This document shows positions 28,732 through 37,002 of a DNA stretch of 64,000 nt, in pieces (within the stretch, counting starts at the first letter, position 1; each line of letters begins with the position of its first letter). Location of the stretch: the NCBI GenBank assembly GCA_964399335.1, contig CAYNQI010000001.1:14707-78706 (forward strand). Direction: 5' to 3'. This stretch comes from an uncultured Thermoplasmata archaeon. Lineage in GTDB: Archaea > Thermoplasmatota > Thermoplasmata > Halarchaeoplasmatales > Halarchaeoplasmataceae. The position numbers and the translations under genes are program-made. The notes below the pieces were generated by a model that was given only the letters and a program-made list of their open reading frames with translations, had not been told where the DNA came from and made no database searches.

Positions 28732-28817
28732 ACAACTTATACATATTGGGAAAAGAATTCAAGCTCAAAAACAACCGAAAAGGTTTATAGATAAAACGCA
28801 ATTTTGGAAGACTCTTT

Positions 28818-30125
28818 ATGGCAAAAAAAGTAAAAAGCGAAAGCGGTAACATATTTTGTTCTTATTGTGGAACCGCCGTAAAAGAAGATGACGATAACTG
28901 TCCTAGCTGCGGTGAAGAACTTGAAGAACGGTTGATCGAAGGGGTGTTATGTCCGTCCTGTGATAATCCCGTCGATCCTATGGAAAATGTTTGTCCAGAA
29001 TGCGGTGCAGAATTATCAGATGTTACTTCCGAAGGAGATAGAGATGAGGAATTTCTCTCTAAGCTACTAGGTTGGGGTGATGAAACCGAAGGCAAGCTGG
29101 AAAAAAAGATCGAAGAAAAACGCAAGGCTATGGAGGTTTTCAAGAAGGTAGCTGATGGCACAGGCGGTAAAGAAGAGAAAAAAAAGGTTGAAAAGAAAGA
29201 CAAGGTAGAGACTGATATCTCATATGACCTTATGGTAAAGCCCTTTGAAGATGTAGTAAAGACTACCGAGGAAACACTAGCTGACATAAAGGATAACATG
29301 GTTGAATTAAAAAGTGAGATTGAAGACTGTGAAGATCCAGAAGATAAAGAAAAGCTTAAAAAAGAGATGGAGGAGCTTAAAAAGAAAAAAAGGCGTTTCC
29401 ATAATATGATCGCTAGTATAGAACAGATGGACAATGCAGTGGAAACTTTACTAGAAAAACAGAGGAAGGAATTAGAAGAGAAGCAAGAAGAACTCAAAAA
29501 CAGAGTTAAAGAGTTCAAGAAGGTAGTTAAAAGGAAGGATAAGGAAAGAGAAGACATCAAGGAAAAGAAAGAGGCCCTTAAAGAAAAAGAAGAAGAACTC
29601 AAGGAAAGGGAGATGAAGCTCAGTATATGGGAAGAAGAACTAAAAAGAAAAGAAGCAAATTTATCTGCACAAGTTGAAGAATATAAGGAAGGGGAGGAAG
29701 CACTTGAAAAAATCGAAAAAGAGATGCCTAAAGAGGGAAAAGTTACCAAAGAAGAATGGTTAGAAGAGCAGAAAAAGATACAAAAAGAGCTCTTTGATCT
29801 AAAGGATATGTGGGGTGAAGATGACGAAACGATTGATATCTCAAATGATTCCGTACCAAAAGTTAGAAAAAAGATAAAAAAGAAGGAAACTGAGTGGAAA
29901 AAGAAAATAGAAGAAATGGAAAAAGAGCTAGAAGAAGTTCGTAAAGAGAAGAAAGAGCTTGAAGCAAAAACCCTTGAGATGGATGTAAAGAAGGAAGAAA
30001 TCGAAACTATACTATCTGTTTTAGATGATCTATTAGGTAACCTTCCTGAAGATCGTATCCGTGAGTTTGCAAAATCAAAGCATTTTGAACTTTATGAGAA
30101 AGTTCTAGACGCCTTTGAATTATAA
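28818..30125 (+). CDS. Double zinc-ribbon protein with long Glu/Lys-rich coiled-coil
   Basis: N-terminus has four CxxC pairs (CSYCG…CPSCG and CPSCD…CPECG). The remaining ~360 aa is highly charged Lys/Glu heptad-like sequence. Confidence 0.6.
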   Translation: MAKKVKSESGNIFCSYCGTAVKEDDDNCPSCGEELEERLIEGVLCPSCDNPVDPMENVCPECGAELSDVTSEGDRDEEFLSKLLGWGDETEGKLEKKIEEKRKAMEVFKKVADGTGGKEEKKKVEKKDKVETDISYDLMVKPFEDVVKTTEETLADIKDNMVELKSEIEDCEDPEDKEKLKKEMEELKKKKRRFHNMIASIEQMDNAVETLLEKQRKELEEKQEELKNRVKEFKKVVKRKDKEREDIKEKKEALKEKEEELKEREMKLSIWEEELKRKEANLSAQVEEYKEGEEALEKIEKEMPKEGKVTKEEWLEEQKKIQKELFDLKDMWGEDDETIDISNDSVPKVRKKIKKKETEWKKKIEEMEKELEEVRKEKKELEAKTLEMDVKKEEIETILSVLDDLLGNLPEDRIREFAKSKHFELYEKVLDAFEL

Positions 30126-30137
30126 GGAGTAATACAG

Positions 30138-33100
30138 ATGGGTTTAAGAGAAAGGGCAAAGAAGGCGCTCGAAGAAGAAGAAAAAACTTCTGAGGAGATC
30201 GAAAAGAAGGAAGAAGGAGTCGAAGAACTACAGAAGGATATCCAAGAGCTCGAGAATAAAAAATCTCAACTCATTGAAGAAATCGATAGATTAGATATCG
30301 AGAAAGAAGACCTTGAATCCAAAAAAGAGGAGTTCGAAAATGTCAAAGCTAAAATTAAAGAGACTGTCAAAAAGAAGAAGGATTTGGAAGAAGGGATTGA
30401 AGAACTTGAACTAGAGTATGAGAAATTAAGGGAAAAACGAGAGGAATTGGAGAGGTTGACTGAAGAGTATGAAACTGTTCAGAAAGAGAAAGAAAGTTTA
30501 GAATCGGAGATCAAAGAACTGAGTGAAAAGAAAGAAAAGATAATAGATGAAAAGGATAGTATCGAAGAAACATACGGTGAACTTGAAAAAGAGATAGCTG
30601 ATCTTAAAAAAAGAAAGGAGGAACTTTTAGAAGGGGAGGAGGAACTAGGTGAGTTATCAGAAAATGTGAAAGAACTGGAAGAAAAGAAAGAAGAGCTTCA
30701 AAAAGAAATCGAAGAACTTGAAAAAGAGAGGGGAGAGATTGCCAAATCCAAAGATGAGCTAGAAAAAGAAGATGAAGAGCTCGAAGAAAAAAGGGAAGAG
30801 TTAAAGAAAAGAGAGCAAGAATTGAACAAAGAAAGAGATGAGTTAAAAGATTTAAAAAACGAGGTCGAGGAAGAAAAAGAAGTTGTTTTAGAAAAAAGGG
30901 AAGATCTCGAAGAAAGAAAAGAAGAATTGGAAGATAAAGAGGGATATTTAGAGGGAAAAGAAAAGGAATTACAGTCAAAAGAGGAAAAGTTAGAAAGAAA
31001 AGAAGAAGACGTTGAGGAAAAGATTTCTGAAATCGACGAAAGGGAGGAAGAGCTAAGAACATTGAAGAAGAGTATCGATGGGAAGAAGGGAGCACTCCAG
31101 AGGTCTAAAAATAAATTGGAGGAGGATAAGAAAGAGTTAGAGGAGAGAGAGAGAAAACTCCAGGAAAAAGAGAAGAAACTTAGAGAAGAACTAAAACAAG
31201 AGTTATTCGAAGAAAAAAGGGAAGAATTGGAGGAACTAGAAGATTCTTTACAAGAGAAAAGGGAGGAGAAAGAAAAGTTAGAAACAGAAATCTCGGACTA
31301 TGAGGAAAGATTAGAAGAGATAGAGGACAAAGAAAATAAGTTAGATGAAAAGGAGACTGGGATAAAAGAAAAAGAAGAAGAATTGAAAGAGCGGACCTCA
31401 CTCTTGGATGAAAGAGAGTTGGCAATAGAAGAGAAAGAAGGGATGATCCAGGAAGCTGAAGAGAAACTAGAAGACATAGAAATTAAGGAGCAGGAGCTTG
31501 AAGAAGAGATAGAGAAACTAGAGGAGAAAGAAAATGTTTTAGATACTAAAGAAGAAAAACTTGATGAACTTGAAGAAAAATTGGATAAAAGAGAAAAGTC
31601 ATTAAGTGAAAGAGAAGATGATACAGCTTCGAAGAGTGAGGAACTTGATGATAAGGAAGAAGAGCTATCTCAGAAAAATGAAGAACTCGAGGCTAAATCT
31701 AAGGAGATAGAAGAGAAGGAACAAGAGTTACAGAAAAGGGAAGAGGAGATAGATCAAAGAAAAGTAGAGTTGGAGAAGCTTGAAGATGATATTAATGAAA
31801 GAAAAGAAGAGATTCAAACTTTAGAGAAGTCATTAGAAGAGAAAGAGGAAGAGTTGGAAAACGTCGAAAAAGAATTGGAAGAGAGACGGAAGAATATATC
31901 TGAATCTGAAAACAAGCTAGATTTAAGAGAAGAACAATTGATAGATTGGGAAGAAGAAGTAGAGGGAAGAGAAGAAGAGCTAGCAGACAAAAGTTCCGAT
32001 TTAGAAGAAAAAGAAAATCAACTCGATCAAAGAAAAGATGAACTTGAAGAACTAAAAGAGGAGTTGGAGGAACGTGAAAAAAGGCTAGAAGACTTGGAAA
32101 GTAATTTAGACGATGTCCAAAAAGAACTTGTAGAGCGTGAAAATCAAATAAAGACTCAAGAAGAAGAACTCGATGAACGAGAAGATAAGATCGAACAACG
32201 GGAGGCGGAACTAGAAGAACTTCAAACCGACCTCAAAGAGAAAGATGAGAAATTAAAGGCCAAGGAAAAAGAACTTCAAGAATGGGATAACAACTTAAAT
32301 GAAAGAGAGCAGGGATTAGATACCAGGGAGGAAGCCATCAATGAAAGAGAAAAAGAGCAAGATGAAAGAGAAGATAATCTTGCTGAGAAAAAGGAAGAAC
32401 TGGGTAAAAAAGAGAATCATCTAATAGAGTGGGAAAGTGAACTTGATACGAGGGAAAACAATCTTAACGAACGTAAATCCAGTCTTGATGATAGAGAAGA
32501 AGAATTGAAAGAGCTAAGCGAAGAACTTGATGAACGAAAAGAAAATATAGAGAAAAAAGAGACGGAACTAGAAGAAAGTGCTCAAGACCTAGATGAGAAA
32601 GAGAAAAAACTCGAAGAGATACAAGATTCTTTAGACCAAAAAGAAGAGGATTTGTCTAAAGAGAAAAAACAATTAAAGGAAGAAAGGGAAGGCCTTCACC
32701 AGTTAAGAGATGAATTGAATAGATGGGAGGACAAGTTAGACGAAAAACAGAAGATTTTAGAAAATGATAGAGATGAGTTCGAAGAAAGGGTGAGTAATAA
32801 AGAGGAGGAATTAAGTGAACGTAGTTCATCACTAGACGAAAAAAGCAAGATATTGTCAGAAAAAGACGACCGTTTGACAAAGTTAGAAAAAGAACTATCC
32901 CAGAAAGAAGGTCGAGTTTCTAAAAAAGAGAAGAATTTAAACGAACTTAAAGAGGACCTTGAAGATAGAGAAGAAAAAATCCTTGAAAAAGAAAAAGGAC
33001 TTGGCAGACTTCAAGAAGAACTAGAAGACTGGAGAGAAGATTTATCCAGTAAAGAACATAGACTTGAAAAAGAAAAAGAAGAAGTTAGTCAAAAAGTCAA

Positions 33101-34175
33101 GGATATACAGGATAAAGAAGCTCGCCTTTGTGAAAGAGAAGGTGTAGTTGAAGAAGAATTAGAGAAGATAGAAAAAGAGAGGGATGATCTATCCGAGATG
33201 TGGACCAATATCGGGGAGAAGCTTGAAGATGTTGAAAATAAAGAGGAAAGATTAGAAAAACAGCGTTCAGAGATTGCGGTACAAAAGAACGAGCTCAAAC
33301 AGAAAGAGAAAAATCTAAACGAAAGGGAAAGTGACATAAAGACAAAGGAAAAAGAACTCGCTGAAAAAGAGGAGGACATAGAAGAAGAGATAGAAGAAGT
33401 AACAAGGGAGATGGAGAAGGCTCGTTCTTGGAGCCAAACAGCTTTAGACAAAGAAAAAGAACTCCAATCCTGGGAAAATGATCTTGAAGAATGGGAGGAT
33501 AAGTTAGAAGAAAGAAGGAACAAGATCCAAGAAGAGAGAGAAGAAATAGAAGAGCTTCTAGAGGAACTACCAGAAAGAGTCGAGGATATTGAAAGGCGAG
33601 AGGAGGAGCTTCGAGGAAAAGAGAATCAATTAGAAGAAGAGAAAGGAAGAATTGAGTCTTTAAAAGAAGAACTCGAAGATAGAGAAAGGGATTTAGAAGA
33701 AGAAAAGAAGCACGTCCAGGATATAAAGGAAAGTGCTATGAACATGATGCAGTATGCCAAATCCAAGAAAGCTAGGGAGGAGAAGAAACGAAGAGAAGAG
33801 ATTCAACATGAGAGAGAAAAACTAGAAAGAGAGAGGAAAAAACTCGAAAAGGAATTGGCCCAGAAAGAAAAGAACCTCGAAAAGAGAGAACAGATGCTTG
33901 ATGATAAGAAAAATGATCTCATGGAAAGAGCCCAAGAGTTGGAAGAAAAGGAAACAGAGCTTCAACAACAGCGGGATCAGATAAAGGAAGAAAAGAAAGA
34001 ACTCACCGAAACTTGGAAAGAACTAGAAGGGGAGTCCAAAAAGATGGAAGAGCTGGAAGAGCGTGAGAAGAACATCGAAGAGCGTGAGAAAGAACTAGAA
34101 GATAAGAAAGAAAAATTAGAAAAGAAGAAAAAGAGGATAGACAAGATGAAAAAGCATCTTGATGATCTATTGTAA
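30138..34175 (+). CDS. Giant (1345 aa) Glu/Lys/Leu-rich coiled-coil protein
   Basis: A 4 kb uninterrupted ORF. A GGAG ribosome-binding site lies 8 nt upstream, 12 nt after the preceding stop. Composition is dominated by Glu, Lys, Leu, Asp and Arg with recurring ELEEKxxELxxKE units. No globular domain or Walker motif is present. Confidence 0.7.
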   Translation: MGLRERAKKALEEEEKTSEEIEKKEEGVEELQKDIQELENKKSQLIEEIDRLDIEKEDLESKKEEFENVKAKIKETVKKKKDLEEGIEELELEYEKLREKREELERLTEEYETVQKEKESLESEIKELSEKKEKIIDEKDSIEETYGELEKEIADLKKRKEELLEGEEELGELSENVKELEEKKEELQKEIEELEKERGEIAKSKDELEKEDEELEEKREELKKREQELNKERDELKDLKNEVEEEKEVVLEKREDLEERKEELEDKEGYLEGKEKELQSKEEKLERKEEDVEEKISEIDEREEELRTLKKSIDGKKGALQRSKNKLEEDKKELEERERKLQEKEKKLREELKQELFEEKREELEELEDSLQEKREEKEKLETEISDYEERLEEIEDKENKLDEKETGIKEKEEELKERTSLLDERELAIEEKEGMIQEAEEKLEDIEIKEQELEEEIEKLEEKENVLDTKEEKLDELEEKLDKREKSLSEREDDTASKSEELDDKEEELSQKNEELEAKSKEIEEKEQELQKREEEIDQRKVELEKLEDDINERKEEIQTLEKSLEEKEEELENVEKELEERRKNISESENKLDLREEQLIDWEEEVEGREEELADKSSDLEEKENQLDQRKDELEELKEELEEREKRLEDLESNLDDVQKELVERENQIKTQEEELDEREDKIEQREAELEELQTDLKEKDEKLKAKEKELQEWDNNLNEREQGLDTREEAINEREKEQDEREDNLAEKKEELGKKENHLIEWESELDTRENNLNERKSSLDDREEELKELSEELDERKENIEKKETELEESAQDLDEKEKKLEEIQDSLDQKEEDLSKEKKQLKEEREGLHQLRDELNRWEDKLDEKQKILENDRDEFEERVSNKEEELSERSSSLDEKSKILSEKDDRLTKLEKELSQKEGRVSKKEKNLNELKEDLEDREEKILEKEKGLGRLQEELEDWREDLSSKEHRLEKEKEEVSQKVKDIQDKEARLCEREGVVEEELEKIEKERDDLSEMWTNIGEKLEDVENKEERLEKQRSEIAVQKNELKQKEKNLNERESDIKTKEKELAEKEEDIEEEIEEVTREMEKARSWSQTALDKEKELQSWENDLEEWEDKLEERRNKIQEEREEIEELLEELPERVEDIERREEELRGKENQLEEEKGRIESLKEELEDRERDLEEEKKHVQDIKESAMNMMQYAKSKKAREEKKRREEIQHEREKLERERKKLEKELAQKEKNLEKREQMLDDKKNDLMERAQELEEKETELQQQRDQIKEEKKELTETWKELEGESKKMEELEEREKNIEEREKELEDKKEKLEKKKKRIDKMKKHLDDLL

Positions 34176-34176
34176 A

Positions 34177-35166
34177 CTATTTTACCCGCTCTATCATATA
34201 ATCTACTAGAGAAATCAGTATATTTTTGTGGTTACTTTCTTGTAAAGATTTTATACTATCCTTTGCACTGTTAGCATACTCCACTGCTAACTCTCTACAA
34301 TATTCGATCGAGTCGTATTTGGTCAGCAGATCTATGGCTTCATCAACTTCTTCTTGAGTACTATCGTTTTCAAGTATCTCAACGAGACGGTTTCTGTCAT
34401 CATCTTCTAAATTTTGAAGGGCATGTATCACCATCAACGTCCTTTTACCGGCTTTGATATCACTACCAACGGGTTTTCCGAGATCATTTTGATTACCCAT
34501 CAAATCTAAATAGTCATCTTGAACCTGGAAAGCGATGCCCATTTTGCGGGCATATTCCCCCAGCATTTCTACCTGTTCCTCGGATGCGTCTGCCACTATA
34601 GCCCCACACCTAGCAGCAGCCTGGAAGAGATAACTAGTCTTCTTTTCGATCATCTCTATGAACTCATCTTCGATGATATCGAAAGTTGTTTCAAATCTCA
34701 TGTCCTCCTCCTGACCTTCTGCAACCTTCAATACCGCTTGAGATATCTCATATAGAACTTGTTTTATTTTCACAGGTTCTACATCCATCTCTGATATCAA
34801 TCTAAAAGAAAGGGCGAAGAGTGCATCTCCGACATTGATAGCAGTGGGTAACCCTTCCTTTTTATGGAGTGTTTGTCTACCTCTTCTTAGATCGTCATCA
34901 TCCATGATATCGTCGTGGATCAAAGTGAAATTATGGATCAATTCGATGGATAAACCAGGTTTTATAGCGTCGTTCTCATCACCATCCAATGCGCCACAAG
35001 ATACCATGGCTAAAAAGGGTCGTAGTTTTTTACCTCCAGCCTGTGGGTACCAAGCCATGTTTTTCCACATGAAATGATCTTTATTTTTGAATATCTTGAC
35101 GATCTCTTCATCTACGATCTTTTTCCTTCTTTGGATCTCAGCCATGAGGTCTGTCATTATCTTCAC
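34177..35166 (-). CDS. idsA: Geranylgeranyl diphosphate synthase / short-chain polyprenyl synthase
   Basis: First DDxxD motif 'LIHDDIMDDDDLRRG' and second 'QVQDDYLD'. Confidence 0.85.
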   Translation of the reverse strand: MKIMTDLMAEIQRRKKIVDEEIVKIFKNKDHFMWKNMAWYPQAGGKKLRPFLAMVSCGALDGDENDAIKPGLSIELIHNFTLIHDDIMDDDDLRRGRQTLHKKEGLPTAINVGDALFALSFRLISEMDVEPVKIKQVLYEISQAVLKVAEGQEEDMRFETTFDIIEDEFIEMIEKKTSYLFQAAARCGAIVADASEEQVEMLGEYARKMGIAFQVQDDYLDLMGNQNDLGKPVGSDIKAGKRTLMVIHALQNLEDDDRNRLVEILENDSTQEEVDEAIDLLTKYDSIEYCRELAVEYANSAKDSIKSLQESNHKNILISLVDYMIERVK

Positions 35167-35209: not shown

Positions 35210-36253
35210 TTATTGGGATAACCAATCTCTTAAATCTTCAGTAACTATCACCCTTCTATCTTTTAGATCATCCACGGTAGAACATCCCTGAAGAAACATA
35301 GAAACTTTCAATCCGTGGATCACGTGTCGTAAATATTTTACGACCTCGTCTTTACCTTCCCTTAAATAAGGTAAAACTCCCCCGGCTATACCAACAACTT
35401 CAGCACCCAATGATAAAGCTTTAGATACCTCTATTCCGTTTCTGATACCTCCAGTAGAGATTATAGGTATGTCTACGGCATTACTGCATTCAAAAGTAGT
35501 TACTGGTGTAGGTATACCCCAGTTCCACAACTCCTTCGCTATAGATCTTTTAAGTTCGTCACTTTCTCTAAAATATTCTACAGCAGAAAAGGATGTTCCT
35601 CCCATGCCTCCAACATCTATGGCTTCAACTCCAGTATTCTGGAGTTTTTCGGCGACATCTGCGGATATGCCAGCACCGGTCTCTTTAGCTATTATTGGTA
35701 CTTCATCAGATAATAGAGAGATGGCTTCCAAAACACCCTTCGAATTTGTATCTCCTTCTGGTTGAACGATTTCCTGGAGATAGTTTAAATGTACAGCTAG
35801 GTAGTCACCATCTATCATTTTTAAAGCTTCTAAAGCTTTGTCAACACCATATGCATCATCTCCTCTCTGAGAGATCAATTGTGGCGCCCCTAAGTTACCG
35901 AACACTAAGGGAGGGTTATGTTCTTTAATAACTTCATAAGAACGTCTCAGACTCTTATCTTCCAAGGCTGCTCTTTGACTGCCAACCCCAAAAGGTATTC
36001 CAAGTTCTTCTGCTGCTTCTGCAAGGATACTATTGATATTTTCAGCACCACTGTAACCTCCAGTTATAGCTGAGATCATTAATGGCGCGGATAAACTTGA
36101 TTTTAAAAATTCAACAGTAGTGTCGATCTCATGAAAATCAATCTCTGGTGTTGAATTATGATAAAATTTTAACATGTTCCAATAATCTTTGCCTGCCTCC
36201 ACATCCTCATCCAAACAAATATCCATATGATCTTCTTTTCTTGATTCTATCAT
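35210..36253 (-). CDS. fni: Isopentenyl-diphosphate delta-isomerase type 2 (FMN-dependent)
   Basis: 'RKEDHMDICL' N-terminus and a glycine-rich FMN-binding TIM barrel. Confidence 0.85.
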   Translation of the reverse strand: MIESRKEDHMDICLDEDVEAGKDYWNMLKFYHNSTPEIDFHEIDTTVEFLKSSLSAPLMISAITGGYSGAENINSILAEAAEELGIPFGVGSQRAALEDKSLRRSYEVIKEHNPPLVFGNLGAPQLISQRGDDAYGVDKALEALKMIDGDYLAVHLNYLQEIVQPEGDTNSKGVLEAISLLSDEVPIIAKETGAGISADVAEKLQNTGVEAIDVGGMGGTSFSAVEYFRESDELKRSIAKELWNWGIPTPVTTFECSNAVDIPIISTGGIRNGIEVSKALSLGAEVVGIAGGVLPYLREGKDEVVKYLRHVIHGLKVSMFLQGCSTVDDLKDRRVIVTEDLRDWLSQ

Positions 36254-37002
36254 CTTTTCACCTCGGTTGAGACCGTATCTTTTCCATTTAGCATCCGTTT
36301 CAATCTATCTTTCTTACTACCGTTGATTACAAATGTCCGACAGTTTTCTGAAATCTCTAGCATTTTTTCAACTTTTCTATTCATCCCGCCAGTCACATCT
36401 ATAGATGTTTCAGTGGTTTTGATGTCCTTTTTTACCAATGGATACATCTCCTCTGTAAATTCGTAAACTAGCTCCCCTTTTTTGTATATACCATCAACAT
36501 TAGAAACAAATATTGCCTTCTCTGCTTTTTCACAAAGACCCAGCATAAGATCGTCACCAGAACATATCGTAACCTTTCTTTTCTCGTCTAATGCAACATC
36601 ACCGAATGTCACCGGAACGGTCCCTATGTCAATATATCGGTGAAAAATATCAGAATTTAAATCCCTCAGTTTGCCATCCGTATATTTTGTAACAATACCA
36701 CCTGGTATAGATACCGCTGGAAGACGCTCATCTATCATCATCTCTATTATTCGATTGTTCAAAACTCTCATATGGTTCTGAACTTTTGAAGTGGCCTCAG
36801 CAACGTTCTTAGGATCCTTTGTGTTGAGTTCAAATTTCTCAGCCCCAGGATGGCCAAAACTACCCCCACCATGCACTACGATAAAGTCATTATCTGTTGA
36901 AGAAGCGATCTCATTAATCAGTCTCGTAGTTCTTCTTCTTTTAAAAGTATAAGGAACATTCTTGTCTGTGATTACACTGCCACCCAACTTAATCAATATC
37001 AA
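36250..37002 (-). CDS. ipk: Isopentenyl phosphate kinase
   Basis: Amino-acid kinase fold 'MILIKLGGSVITDK', ~250 aa. Overlaps fni by 4 nt. Confidence 0.85.
   Translation of the reverse strand: MILIKLGGSVITDKNVPYTFKRRRTTRLINEIASSTDNDFIVVHGGGSFGHPGAEKFELNTKDPKNVAEATSKVQNHMRVLNNRIIEMMIDERLPAVSIPGGIVTKYTDGKLRDLNSDIFHRYIDIGTVPVTFGDVALDEKRKVTICSGDDLMLGLCEKAEKAIFVSNVDGIYKKGELVYEFTEEMYPLVKKDIKTTETSIDVTGGMNRKVEKMLEISENCRTFVINGSKKDRLKRMLNGKDTVSTEVKR

What the first reader, a model, noticed from the sequence alone, without database searches (positions are those of the whole stretch)
28818..34175. Two-gene locus: zinc-ribbon/coiled-coil protein plus 1,345-aa almost purely Glu/Lys coiled-coil protein
The second ORF starts 12 nt after the first behind a GGAG ribosome-binding site, so the pair is probably co-transcribed. 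Together they give ~1,780 aa of highly charged, heptad-like sequence (ELEEKxxELxxKE units). The only recognisable domain is an N-terminal pair of CxxC…CxxC zinc ribbons. Neither protein has an ATPase or SMC head. The architecture resembles eukaryotic filament-forming rod proteins and could be an archaeal cytoskeletal or tethering element. The underlying DNA is long GAA/AAG-rich low-complexity repeat, so it is also prone to assembly collapse and slippage.
Basis: seen in the sequence. Interest (0 to 1): 0.6.

Follow-up and report, generated by a model that had tools for sequence, protein, structure and literature searches.

The report
Zinc-ribbon adaptor plus giant coiled-coil rod
This is a real two-gene operon, conserved in uncultured Thermoplasmata archaea, that encodes a zinc-ribbon adaptor protein and a roughly 200-nm coiled-coil rod, and the two seem to be joined by a tail-domain/head-peptide pairing that recurs next to many other genes in archaea and bacteria.

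Summary
ORF1 (28818-30125, 435 aa) and ORF2 (30138-34175, 1345 aa) are intact, 12 nt apart behind a GGAG, and strongly heptad-periodic. Neither has an ATPase head.

Two sub-claims fail.
- ORF1 has a second recognisable domain: a C-terminal three-helix module, Pfam PF27359 'TP_0179'.
- The DNA is purine-rich but carries only degenerate 21-nt periodicity. Orthologues from independent assemblies match ORF2 in length to within 7 aa, and their indels are mostly 7 or 14 aa. It is not an assembly artefact.

The pair is conserved in at least 14 Thermoplasmatota loci, with no conserved third gene. All ORF2 orthologues start with MGLR[EDQ][KR]A[KR]. Most share a C-terminal region.

Main new finding: in 100 gene pairs from Archaea and Bacteria, a protein ending in TP_0179 is followed within a few nucleotides by a gene starting MGL[LRFI]x[KRQ]A. 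The stricter motif was never seen elsewhere in 1.02 Mb. The downstream partners include PilB-type ATPases, giant rods and spirochaete proteins of unknown function.

Best reading, inferred and not shown: ORF1's tail docks onto ORF2's N-terminal peptide, giving an anchored, non-enzymatic rod that acts as a scaffold or tether. Its cellular role is unknown.

The parts
28776..28789 (+). Archaeal BRE/TATA-like promoter element (CGAAAAGGTTTATA). Its last base lies 28 nt before the ORF1 ATG, which implies a leaderless or near-leaderless transcript.
   Evidence: CGAAAA-GTTTATA is invariant in the window and four related loci (L007-L010), while the flanking sequence varies. Promoter function is inferred from the archaeal consensus.
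28818..30125 (+). ORF1, 435 aa: a zinc-ribbon / coiled-coil / TP_0179 adaptor protein.
   Evidence: Intact ORF. There are 16 homologues at E<=1e-3. Orthologues occur in all 14 class-i loci. Against L007, pN is 0.13 and pS 0.80.
28857..29006 (+). Double zinc ribbon (residues 14-63, four CxxC motifs).
   Evidence: Pfam DZR 38.6 bits and Zn_ribbon_3 43.9 bits, both above cut-off. CxxC motifs at residues 14, 28, 45 and 59. AF2 predicts beta structure here with pLDDT of about 73-86.
29031..30038 (+). Helical / coiled-coil region of ORF1 (residues 72-407). It includes the conserved DEEFLxKLLxWG motif (residues 76-88) and a 129-residue helix (174-302).
   Evidence: AF2 helices at 72-112, 124-170, 174-302 (pLDDT mostly above 90), 311-333 and 346-407. 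Periodicity of 3.54 residues with power 3.11, against a shuffle maximum of 1.79. Conserved motifs are visible in alignment A1.
29994..30122 (+). C-terminal TP_0179 domain (PF27359; residues 393-435), a small three-helix module with net charge -7.
   Evidence: Residues L399, L402, D403, L405, L406, L409, P410, F417, S420, Y426 and E427 are invariant across 16 family members. PF27359 is precomputed on the homologues. AF2 gives a three-helix model with pLDDT 87. Net charge.
30126..30129 (+). Shine-Dalgarno GGAG, 8 nt upstream of the ORF2 ATG.
   Evidence: Read directly from the sequence. GGAG, GAGC, GAGT or GAGG is kept at this position in L007-L011.
30138..34175 (+). ORF2, 1345 aa: a giant heptad coiled-coil rod, about 200 nm long if it forms one continuous coiled coil.
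   Evidence: Intact ORF. Heptad periodicity. It is 64.6% identical to L007_B with a single 7-aa indel and 57.8% identical to L008_B with two 7-aa indels; pN is 0.20-0.24 against pS 0.77-0.87.
30138..30173 (+). N-terminal MGLRERAKKALE peptide, the proposed docking peptide for the TP_0179 domain.
   Evidence: MGLR[EDQ][KR]A[KR] begins every class-i orthologue. The MG[LI][LRFI]x[KRQ]A motif was preceded by TP_0179 in 93 of 93 occurrences and never seen elsewhere in 1.02 Mb. Third codon positions vary, so selection acts on the protein.
33525..34172 (+). Conserved C-terminal region of ORF2 (residues ~1130-1345). It holds the protein's only proline (P1145, in the ELPERV motif), the ESAMNMMQYAKSKK motif, a conserved Trp (ETWKE) and the terminal RIDKMKKHLDDLL.
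   Evidence: Alignment of 11 orthologues. The single proline is at residue 1145.

Best explanation
ORF1 and ORF2 form a self-contained operon, conserved in Thermoplasmatota, that builds a non-enzymatic two-part rod.

- ORF1 is the adaptor. It has an N-terminal double zinc ribbon (the presumed anchoring or partner-binding end), about 330 residues of coiled coil, and a C-terminal three-helix TP_0179 domain.
- ORF2 is a rod with heptad register over most of its 1345 residues, broken by about 20 register shifts. That gives about 200 nm if it is a continuous parallel dimer. It has a short basic N-terminal peptide (MGLRERAKK) and a conserved C-terminal region of about 215 residues.

Proposed mechanism: the acidic TP_0179 tail of ORF1 captures the N-terminal MGL peptide of ORF2. 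The two coding sequences abut, so this may happen as ORF2 emerges from the ribosome. The rod would then be fixed head-to-tail to a zinc-ribbon anchor. The same tail-to-head pairing links other consecutive gene products, such as adaptors to PilB-type ATPases. The assembled complex most likely acts as a structural scaffold, spacer or tether.

Shown here: the genes are real and under constraint, the domain anatomy, and the adjacency rule. Inferred: co-transcription, physical docking, oligomeric state and cellular role.
For: **The genes are real and constrained**
- Orthologue lengths are 1352, 1345, 1296 and 1289 aa. Indels are mostly 7 or 14 aa.
- pN is 0.20-0.40 while synonymous sites are saturated.

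**Operon signals**
- A BRE/TATA element is invariant upstream of ORF1 and a Shine-Dalgarno sequence is kept before ORF2.
- The pair is the only gene set shared by all 14 class-i loci (ORF2 orthologues).

**Anatomy**
-.

**Docking hypothesis**
- In 45 of 46 GTDB loci, the gene after a TP_0179-ending protein starts MGL[RL]..., with a gap of -4 to +15 nt (61 nt in one locus).
- The stricter motif was preceded by TP_0179 in 51 of 51 archaeal and 42 of 42 bacterial occurrences, and in none of the remaining 1.02 Mb.
- In total there are 100 pairs, 97 of them non-identical.
- Selection acts at the protein level. Third codon positions carry 1.0-1.9 bits of entropy, first and second positions are mostly near-fixed, and the upstream RNA is unconserved.
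- Three-gene daisy chains exist in which the middle protein carries both an MGL head and a TP_0179 tail: L005 and L024.
- In an Altiarchaeota locus, a 65-aa protein with a ParB-like N-terminal peptide (my reading of the sequence, untested) and a TP_0179 tail sits between a ParA/MinD-like ATPase and a T2SSE ATPase that starts MGLRDKAKK. This is what an adaptor would look like.
- Charges are complementary: -7 for the domain and +2 for the peptide.
- Among 184 TP_0179-bearing proteins, the domain lies within 15 residues of the C-terminus in 169 of the 178 where the motif was found, and none of the 184 also carries the MGL motif.
Against: - No physical or structural test of docking was possible.
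- Adjacency could equally mean that both motifs bind a common third partner.
- 23 of 76 bacterial TP_0179 genes lack an adjacent MGL gene, as do archaeal loci L035 and L055. The pairing is therefore not obligatory from the TP_0179 side.
- Covariation between subtypes is confounded by shared ancestry.
- Nothing in the gene context points to a cellular process. Neighbours are housekeeping genes and vary between lineages.
- One third of the core 'd' positions are Lys or Arg, so the oligomeric state and stability of the rod are uncertain.
Confidence: 0.5

Rival explanations
1. The two proteins are co-expressed, but TP_0179 does not bind the MGL peptide. Instead both motifs independently bind a common third partner, such as a hub protein, the membrane or a chaperone. 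Alternatively, the MGL N-terminus is a targeting or stability signal whose position next to TP_0179 genes reflects shared regulation.
For: - TP_0179 genes occur without an adjacent MGL gene in 23 of 76 bacterial loci, in L035 and in L055.
- PilB-type partners carry two or three internal copies of the xLLEKAxxKK motif, as expected of a short linear motif that recruits a multivalent partner.
- From my own knowledge, untested here: MGLF-type N-termini resemble the amphipathic helix alpha-0 of PspA/Vipp1.
Against: - The coupling is positionally strict, from an extreme C-terminus to an extreme N-terminus with gaps of -4 to +15 nt. All 93 motif occurrences follow a TP_0179 gene.
- Daisy chains exist.
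- A common-partner model does not require adjacency or terminal placement.
- The ORF2 peptide is too polar to insert into a membrane, and neither protein has a transmembrane segment.
Confidence: 0.25
2. The pair is an accessory of a type IV pilus-like or archaellum-like machine encoded elsewhere in the genome. It would be analogous to the TP_0179 adaptors that sit directly upstream of PilB-type ATPases, with the rod acting as a cytoplasmic scaffold for that machine.
For: - Most TP_0179/MGL pairs in Thermoplasmatota, and the Altiarchaeota pair, have a T2SSE ATPase as the downstream partner. The one Nanoarchaeota pair instead has a 596-aa coiled-coil partner.
- Coiled-coil cytoplasmic components are known in archaeal type IV pilus loci (PMC4858521).
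Against: - There is no T2SSE or T2SSF gene next to any of the 14 class-i loci, and no second TP_0179 or MGL motif in the 64-kb window.
- In class i the rod occupies the position that the ATPase occupies in class ii. It replaces the ATPase rather than accompanying it.
Confidence: 0.15
3. ORF2 is a divergent SMC/Rad50/ASRP-type chromosome-organising or defence ATPase with cryptic head domains.
For: NCBIfam and PADLOC report matches to SMC_prok_B (151 bits), ASRP (151.5 bits), Rad50, JetC and LmuB.
Against: - All scores are far below the curated cut-offs: 151 against 567 for SMC_prok_B and 151.5 against 300 for ASRP. All map to arm positions of the profiles, for example SMC 233-497.
- There is no Walker A motif. 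ORF2 has a single cysteine, so it has no zinc hook.
- The N-terminus is a 12-residue peptide that runs straight into heptads, and the C-terminus ends in a helix.
Confidence: 0.03
4. The long ORF is an artefact: a chance open frame in purine-rich low-complexity DNA, or a mis-assembled repeat.
For: The region has a strong purine skew (GC skew up to +0.53, AT skew up to +0.51). Long spurious antisense ORFs are also present.
Against: - Orthologues from independent MAGs align along the full length, with 64.6% and 57.8% identity and only 7-aa indels.
- pN is much lower than pS.
- The termini are conserved across the family.
- DNA repeats are degenerate.
Confidence: 0.01

Closest known systems
Pfam PF27359 'TP_0179' domain family (named after Treponema pallidum TP_0179; function uncharacterised)
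   Same: The ORF1 C-terminus carries every invariant residue of the family. Its homologues have precomputed PF27359 hits. As in most members, the domain lies at the extreme C-terminus.
   Different: The N-terminal architecture (double zinc ribbon plus coiled coil) is specific to the Thermoplasmatota class-i group. I found no functional literature on the domain. The link to MGL N-termini in the next gene is not something I could find described.
TP_0179-adaptor / PilB-type (T2SSE) ATPase operons of Thermoplasmatota and Altiarchaeota
   Same: The same tail-domain to head-peptide gene junction, the same tight spacing, and a coiled-coil or low-complexity adaptor upstream.
   Different: There the downstream partner is an ATPase followed by T2SSF membrane proteins. 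Here it is a 1345-aa rod with no enzymatic domain, and no pilus genes are nearby.
Bacterial coiled-coil-rich cytoskeletal proteins (Streptomyces Scy and FilP, Caulobacter crescentin, Helicobacter Ccrp). From my own knowledge.
   Same: Very long, non-enzymatic coiled-coil rods of comparable size (Scy is about 1300 aa). They are proposed to act as scaffolds.
   Different: There is no sequence relationship. ORF2 is heptad-based rather than built on Scy-type longer repeats. ORF2 has a dedicated zinc-ribbon adaptor and a docking peptide. Filament formation has not been tested.
SMC / Rad50 / archaea-specific SMC-related protein (ASRP) arms
   Same: Long heptad coiled coil, with sub-threshold profile matches to the arm regions.
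   Different: No ATPase head, hinge or zinc hook. It is not a member.
Helicobacter pylori HP0958 (FlgZ): coiled-coil hairpin plus zinc ribbon (cited in PMC4858521)
   Same: It combines a zinc ribbon with a coiled coil in a cytoplasmic accessory protein of a filament-export machine.
   Different: The domain order is reversed, the protein is much shorter, it has no TP_0179 tail, and no homology was detected.

Membership tests
Pfam DZR / Zn_ribbon_3 (double zinc ribbon) | Two CxxC...CxxC ribbons scoring above the Pfam gathering threshold. | tested here: met
   DZR scores 38.6 bits (cut-off 27.3) over residues 14-63, and Zn_ribbon_3 scores 43.9 bits (cut-off 27). There are four CxxC motifs.
Pfam PF27359 TP_0179 domain | C-terminal motif of about 45 residues, LDxLLxxLPxxxIxxFxxSxxFxLYEKV, forming a small helical module. 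| tested here: met
   - The local Pfam copy lacks this model, so ORF1 itself could not be scored against it.
- Homologues at 54% and 47% identity carry precomputed PF27359 hits.
- ORF1 has all 11 invariant residues.
- A profile seeded with the ORF1 tail retrieves 2653 cluster representatives.
- AF2 gives a three-helix model with pLDDT 87.
SMC / Rad50 / ASRP superfamily | N-terminal Walker A head. | tested here: not met
   No G....GK[ST] motif in ORF1 or ORF2. The ORF2 N-terminus is MGLRERAKKALEEEEK, which runs straight into heptads.
SMC / Rad50 / ASRP superfamily | Whole-protein score above the curated cut-off, covering the head and hinge positions of the profile. | tested here: not met
   SMC_prok_B scores 151 bits against a cut-off of 567, and ASRP scores 151.5 against 300. 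The matched profile positions lie in the arms only.
SMC / Rad50 / ASRP superfamily | Central hinge or CxxC zinc hook. | tested here: not met
   ORF2 has a single cysteine, at residue 998.
RNase Y (Pfam RNase_Y_N hit) | N-terminal membrane helix plus KH and HD catalytic domains. | tested here: not met
   The RNase_Y_N hit (64.5 bits) comes from 8 repeated coiled-coil stretches. No KH or HD domain was found. There is no transmembrane segment: the maximum Kyte-Doolittle 19-residue average is -0.56. TIGR03319 RNase_Y scores 41.5 bits against a cut-off of 454.
Canonical heptad coiled coil | 3.5/7-residue hydrophobic periodicity with the a and d positions occupied. | tested here: met
   Peaks at 3.50 and 7.04 residues lie far above the shuffle values. 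Position a is 44% Leu and 14% Ile; position d is 35% Leu and 11% Ile, but also 33% Lys/Arg. An unbroken register run spans about residues 521-884. Indels between orthologues are mostly multiples of 7.
Charged single alpha-helix (ER/K SAH) domain | Long stretches free of hydrophobic residues, with i to i+4 Glu-to-Lys/Arg pairing. | tested here: not met
   The longest hydrophobic-free run is 15 residues. Hydrophobic residues make up 20.6% and follow a 3.5-residue periodicity. The i to i+4 acid-to-base enrichment is modest (z = 2.5).
Intermediate-filament-like / coiled-coil-rich cytoskeletal proteins | Self-assembly into filaments, and a shape or organisation phenotype. | not testable with these tools
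   This needs purified protein studied by EM or AFM, and genetics or imaging in the organism.
Anti-phage defence systems (PADLOC) | A match to a defence-protein model outside generic coiled-coil regions, plus the partner genes of that system. | tested here: not met
   Only JetC, LmuB and DruC coiled-coil segments match. The neighbours are housekeeping genes.

The most novel reading that the evidence does not exclude
The TP_0179 tail and the MGLxxKA head form a general, previously undescribed docking code. A small C-terminal three-helix domain on one protein would capture the N-terminal peptide of the protein encoded immediately downstream, possibly co-translationally. This would string consecutive gene products into complexes in both Archaea and Bacteria: pilus ATPases, ParA-linked adaptors, spirochaete proteins of unknown function, and here a 200-nm rod. 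ORF1/ORF2 would then be an anchored cytoskeletal ruler or tether in Thermoplasmata, a class whose cultured members commonly lack a cell wall (my own knowledge).
Probability: 0.45. Interest if true: 0.75.

Novelty: new variant of a known kind. Interest (0 to 1): 0.6.

Why it matters
- If the TP_0179-to-MGL pairing is a physical handshake, it gives a simple sequence rule for predicting protein-protein contacts between neighbouring genes. The rule would apply to thousands of uncharacterised proteins: 2653 cluster representatives carry the domain.
- It would assign a function to a Pfam domain of unknown function that is found from Treponema to DPANN archaea.
- It would show how PilB-type ATPases in several uncultured archaeal lineages are recruited.
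- For archaeal cell biology, a conserved rod of about 200 nm with a dedicated zinc-ribbon anchor and register-preserving evolution is a concrete candidate for a cytoskeletal or tethering element in Thermoplasmata.
- The docking step can be tested directly with a 50-residue domain and a 16-residue peptide.

Tried and rejected
1. **Word-indexed homologue search with the ORF2 C-terminal 257 aa.** The 8000 candidates were swamped by low-complexity sequences and nothing scored. ORF2 orthologues were taken instead from the loci found through ORF1.
2. **Word-indexed search with the TP_0179 profile.** It returned only 25 short proteins. The exhaustive search was needed to see the family size.
3. **Locus search with the 16-sequence alignment A1.** It was repeated with 7 sequences.
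5. **Literature.** Papers that mention TP0179 or TP0180 treat them only as loci in genome comparisons. The ESCRT and archaeal type IV pilus surveys do not describe this pair.
6. **Search for a conserved third gene.** None was found across the 14 loci. The recurrent upstream gene in one clade is a nitroreductase.
7. **SMC/Rad50, RNase Y, defence-system and single-alpha-helix readings.** All rejected on tested features.
8. **RNA-level explanation for the conserved junction.** Rejected because third codon positions vary and the upstream 30 nt are unconserved.
9. **Strict residue covariation between the TP_0179 tail and peptide position 4.** Clade-level tracking exists, but it cannot be separated from shared ancestry, so it counts only as weak support.


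Full report
**1. Observation**

The ORF1 stop is at 30123-30125, GGAG at 30126-30129 and the ORF2 ATG at 30138.

ORF1 has four CxxC motifs at residues 14, 28, 45 and 59. It passes the Pfam thresholds for DZR and Zn_ribbon_3.

ORF2 is 31.9% Glu and 16.0% Lys, 61.6% charged overall, with net charge -218. It has one proline and one cysteine.

Hydrophobic residues in ORF2 show periodicities of 3.50 residues (power 8.27) and 7.04 residues (power 2.52). The best value over 100 shuffles was 1.91. A register scan shows:
- position a is 44% Leu and 14% Ile;
- position d is 35% Leu and 11% Ile, but also 33% Lys/Arg;
- one register run is unbroken from about residue 521 to 884;
- there are about 20 shifts of 3 or 4 residues elsewhere.

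The longest stretch without a hydrophobic residue is 15 aa. This is therefore a coiled coil and not a charged single helix.

**2. Sub-claims that do not hold**

The DNA is strongly purine-skewed (GC skew up to +0.53, AT skew up to +0.51). However, its repeats are only a degenerate 21-nt (heptad) periodicity. Most copies are 61-72% identical over at most 57 nt, and one copy reaches 81%. Shorter repeats reach about 88% identity. There are no long exact repeats.

Orthologues from independent metagenome-assembled genomes align with ORF2 over the full length:

| Locus | Identity to ORF2 | Indels |
|---|---|---|
| L007 | 64.6% | one 7-aa indel |
| L008 | 57.8% | two 7-aa indels |
| L009, L011 | about 39% | mostly 7 or 14 aa |

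Non-synonymous differences are 0.20-0.40 per site, while synonymous sites are saturated at 0.77-0.91. The gene is real and under purifying selection. Its indels are mostly whole heptads, which points to selection for an unbroken coiled-coil register.

The long antisense ORFs listed (for example 28862-29749 on the minus strand, rich in Ser and Phe) look like by-products of this codon bias.

The zinc ribbons are not the only recognisable domain. All 16 ORF1 family members end in an invariant motif, L..LD.LL..LP...I..FA.S..F.LYEKV. The database annotates this as Pfam PF27359, 'TP_0179'. The local Pfam copy lacks that model, which is why one search did not report it.

**3. Anatomy**

ORF1, from AF2 with 16 sequences (mean pLDDT 77):
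- beta zinc ribbons over residues 1-65;
- helices at 72-112, 124-170, 174-302 (pLDDT mostly above 90), 311-333 and 346-407;
- the TP_0179 module.

Modelled alone with 26 sequences, the TP_0179 module is a three-helix mini-domain with pLDDT 87. It has no significant match in the PDB; the best hit has E = 2.6.

ORF2 orthologues range from 860 to 1814 aa. Shared features:
- an N-terminal MGLR[EDQ][KR]A[KR] peptide, in all orthologues;
- a conserved proline break ([ED][LI]P[EQ][RK]), seen in seven of eleven aligned orthologues;
- an ESAxxxMxYAKSxxxR motif, and a conserved Trp;
- a terminal R[IL]D[KR]MKxxLxxLL, absent from L016.

Neither protein has a transmembrane segment or a Walker A motif.

A BRE/TATA-like element, CGAAAA-GTTTATA (28776-28789), ends 28 nt before the ORF1 ATG and is invariant in five related loci. 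A GGAG/GAGG Shine-Dalgarno sequence is kept before ORF2. This fits, by inference, a near-leaderless bicistronic transcript.

**4. Distribution and context**

A scan of one genome per GTDB species found 46 loci with a TP_0179 tail, nearly all in uncultured Thermoplasmatota. The closest relatives of ORF1 are:
- a Thermoplasmatota MAG at 77% identity;
- 'Candidatus Saliniplasma' at 66%, in the order Ca. Halarchaeoplasmatales. This group of halophiles is thought to use a 'salt-in' strategy with acidic proteomes (PMC11332174).

That probably explains part of the extreme Glu content. Close orthologues are about 55-63% charged, while distant ones (L014-L017) are about 45-46% charged and rich in Ala and Arg.

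Across the 14 class-i loci, only the pair itself is shared. ORF1 orthologues cluster in all 14, and the ORF2 orthologues, which low-complexity masking hid from that clustering, were identified. Neighbours vary and are housekeeping genes: NUDIX, GDT1, polyprenyl synthase, IDI2 and IPK in the window, and a nitroreductase in another clade. The module is self-contained, and gene context gives no functional clue.

**5. The tail-to-head rule**

In 45 of the 46 GTDB loci, the gene immediately after the TP_0179-ending protein begins MGL[RL].... The gap is -4 to +15 nt, with one case of 61 nt.

The loci fall into two classes.
- **Class i (11 GTDB loci plus L003 and L005).** A zinc-ribbon / coiled-coil / TP_0179 protein followed by a giant rod.
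- **Class ii (about 35 loci).** A Lys/Glu-rich low-complexity protein with a TP_0179 tail. In nearly all of them it is followed by a PilB/FlaI-type ATPase of about 600-650 aa (Pfam T2SSE, PilB3_C). The ATPase starts MGLLEKAQQKK, often with one or two further internal copies of that motif.

Further cases:
- In an Altiarchaeota contig the gene order is a ParA/MinD-like ATPase, then a 65-aa TP_0179 protein, then a T2SSE ATPase starting MGLRDKAKK, then two T2SSF genes. The N-terminus of the 65-aa protein (KVLGKGIRALIP) resembles, to my eye, the ParA-stimulating peptide of ParB. That resemblance is my reading and was not tested.
- Two loci hold three-gene daisy chains in which the middle protein has both an MGL head and a TP_0179 tail: L005 and L024.
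- A metagenome scan with the spirochaete form of the domain returned 80 bacterial loci. In 53 of the 76 with a downstream ORF, that ORF starts MGL[LFIR] at -4 to +3 nt. Six sampled partners have no confident Pfam match.

Overall there are 100 pairs, 97 of them non-identical.

Specificity is very high within this sample. The ATG-anchored motif MG[LI][LRFI]x[KRQ]A occurs 51 times in the archaeal set and 42 times in the bacterial set. Every occurrence lies just downstream of a TP_0179 motif, and none lies elsewhere in 1.02 Mb.

At the junction, third codon positions are variable (1.0-1.9 bits), first and second positions are mostly near-fixed, and the 30 nt upstream are unconserved. Selection therefore acts on the peptide and not on an RNA element.

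An exhaustive profile search finds 2653 cluster representatives with the domain (1558 at E <= 1e-10). The domain is almost always at the extreme C-terminus and sometimes occurs in tandem. Its N-terminal partners are diverse: transmembrane proteins, coiled coils and acidic low-complexity proteins.

**6. Mechanism**

The most economical reading is that TP_0179 is a docking module for the N-terminal MGL peptide of the next gene product, and that proteins ending in it are adaptors. For this locus:
- the ORF1 acidic tail (net -7) would hold the basic head of ORF2 (net +2 over the first 12 residues);
- this would attach a rod of about 200 nm (1345 x 0.1485 nm) to a zinc-ribbon / coiled-coil anchor;
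- the abutting coding sequences would favour capture as the ORF2 N-terminus emerges from the ribosome.

Conserved rod length within the close clade (1289-1352 aa), together with whole-heptad indels, suggests that length and register matter, as they would for a spacer, ruler or tether.

All of this is inference. Docking was not tested, because the tools offer no multimer prediction. The oligomeric state is unknown, the ligand of the zinc ribbons is unknown, and no cellular process is implicated. I put about 0.5 on the combined statement. The components differ:
- the module being real and non-enzymatic: above 0.9;
- direct docking: about 0.6;
- a scaffold or tether role: about 0.4.

**7. Rivals**

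- *Common third partner or targeting signal instead of direct docking (0.25).* Some TP_0179 genes lack an adjacent MGL gene, which this reading allows. It does not explain the strict terminal placement and adjacency.
- *Accessory of a pilus-like machine encoded elsewhere (0.15).* Class ii suggests it. However, no pilus genes accompany any class-i locus, and the rod occupies the ATPase's position rather than joining it.
- *Cryptic SMC/Rad50 (0.03).* Only sub-threshold arm matches, no Walker A, no hook.
- *Artefact (0.01).* Excluded.

**8. Comparison with known families**

ORF1 is a member of the DZR family (tested directly) and of the TP_0179 family (membership tested indirectly through its homologues). 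ORF2 belongs to no curated family:
- its Pfam RNase_Y_N hit comes from repeated coiled-coil segments, and no KH or HD domain or membrane helix is present;
- its orthologues have no Pfam annotation.

In what it works like, the nearest analogues are long bacterial coiled-coil scaffolds such as Scy, FilP and crescentin, and adaptor-client pairs in ParA or pilus systems. That comparison rests on my own knowledge. The resemblance is architectural and not homologous.

I found no paper that describes the TP_0179 domain's function or its pairing with MGL N-termini. The library is incomplete, so this is absence of evidence only.

**9. Verdict**

This is a real, conserved, non-enzymatic two-gene coiled-coil module.

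The finding ranks above ordinary because of the cross-domain tail-to-head gene-junction rule it exposes. That rule is directly testable and, if physical, would annotate thousands of proteins.

- Novelty: new variant of a known kind (long coiled-coil scaffold with adaptor).
- Interest: 0.6.

Noticed in passing
L053:2315-5611 (Altiarchaeota contig JAZDNF010000009.1): The gene order is a ParA/MinD-like ATPase, then a 65-aa protein, then a T2SSE ATPase starting MGLRDKAKK, then two T2SSF genes. The 65-aa protein has a C-terminal TP_0179 domain, and its N-terminus (KVLGKGIRALIP) looks like a ParB-type ParA-stimulating peptide. It looks like a minimal adaptor linking a positioning ATPase to a pilus ATPase.
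   Followed up: partly
L005:10001-14534 and L024:247-4227: Three-gene 'daisy chains'. Protein 1 ends in TP_0179. Protein 2 starts with MGL and ends in TP_0179. Protein 3 starts with MGL and is a giant rod in L005 and a T2SSE ATPase in L024.
   Followed up: partly
L056-L135 (spirochaete-like metagenome contigs, many from termite gut): Bacterial TP_0179 proteins are 35-1080 aa as called (the shortest are cut by contig ends) and often acidic low-complexity. In about 70% of loci they are followed by small MGL[LFI]-starting proteins with no Pfam family. In the rest, MptE-like genes (HSRYNP motif) often follow directly.
   Followed up: partly
L016:8406 onward (gene B) and L035:2383-5028 (gene A): Domain variants. 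One ORF2 orthologue carries a DUF835 domain between the MGL peptide and the rod. One TP_0179 protein has two regions that look KaiC-like by eye (not tested) ahead of the coiled coil, and it has no MGL partner downstream.
   Followed up: partly
window:34134-34172 (+): The last residues of ORF2 (RIDKMKKHLDDLL) resemble helix 1 of the TP_0179 domain (SVLDDLLGNLPE) but stop before the LP turn. This ending is conserved in most ORF2 orthologues. Whether it is a truncated or mimicking docking element is unknown.
   Followed up: no
window:34175-37002: ORF2 ends 1 nt from the stop of a convergent isoprenoid-lipid gene set on the minus strand: polyprenyl synthase (34177-35166), FMN-dependent IDI2-type isomerase (35210-36253) and an amino-acid-kinase-family isopentenyl-phosphate-kinase-like gene (36250-37002). 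The enzyme names beyond the Pfam families are my own assignment. This arrangement is kept in close relatives (L007-L009 and L011) but not in distant ones.
   Followed up: partly
window:24305-24889 (-): A 194-aa PRC-barrel protein lies about 4 kb upstream on the opposite strand. PRC-barrel proteins have been linked to archaeal cell division (my own knowledge). No conserved linkage to the pair was seen.
   Followed up: no
window:28862-29749 (-), 30604-31095 (-), 33089-33523 (-): Long Ser/Phe/Leu-rich antisense ORFs of up to 295 aa lie opposite ORF1 and ORF2. They look like artefacts of the purine-rich sense codons and could be mis-called as genes.
   Followed up: no
L003:7518-7913: In one distant class-i locus a SepF gene lies three genes upstream of the pair, on the opposite strand. 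This was seen only once and is probably coincidental.
   Followed up: no
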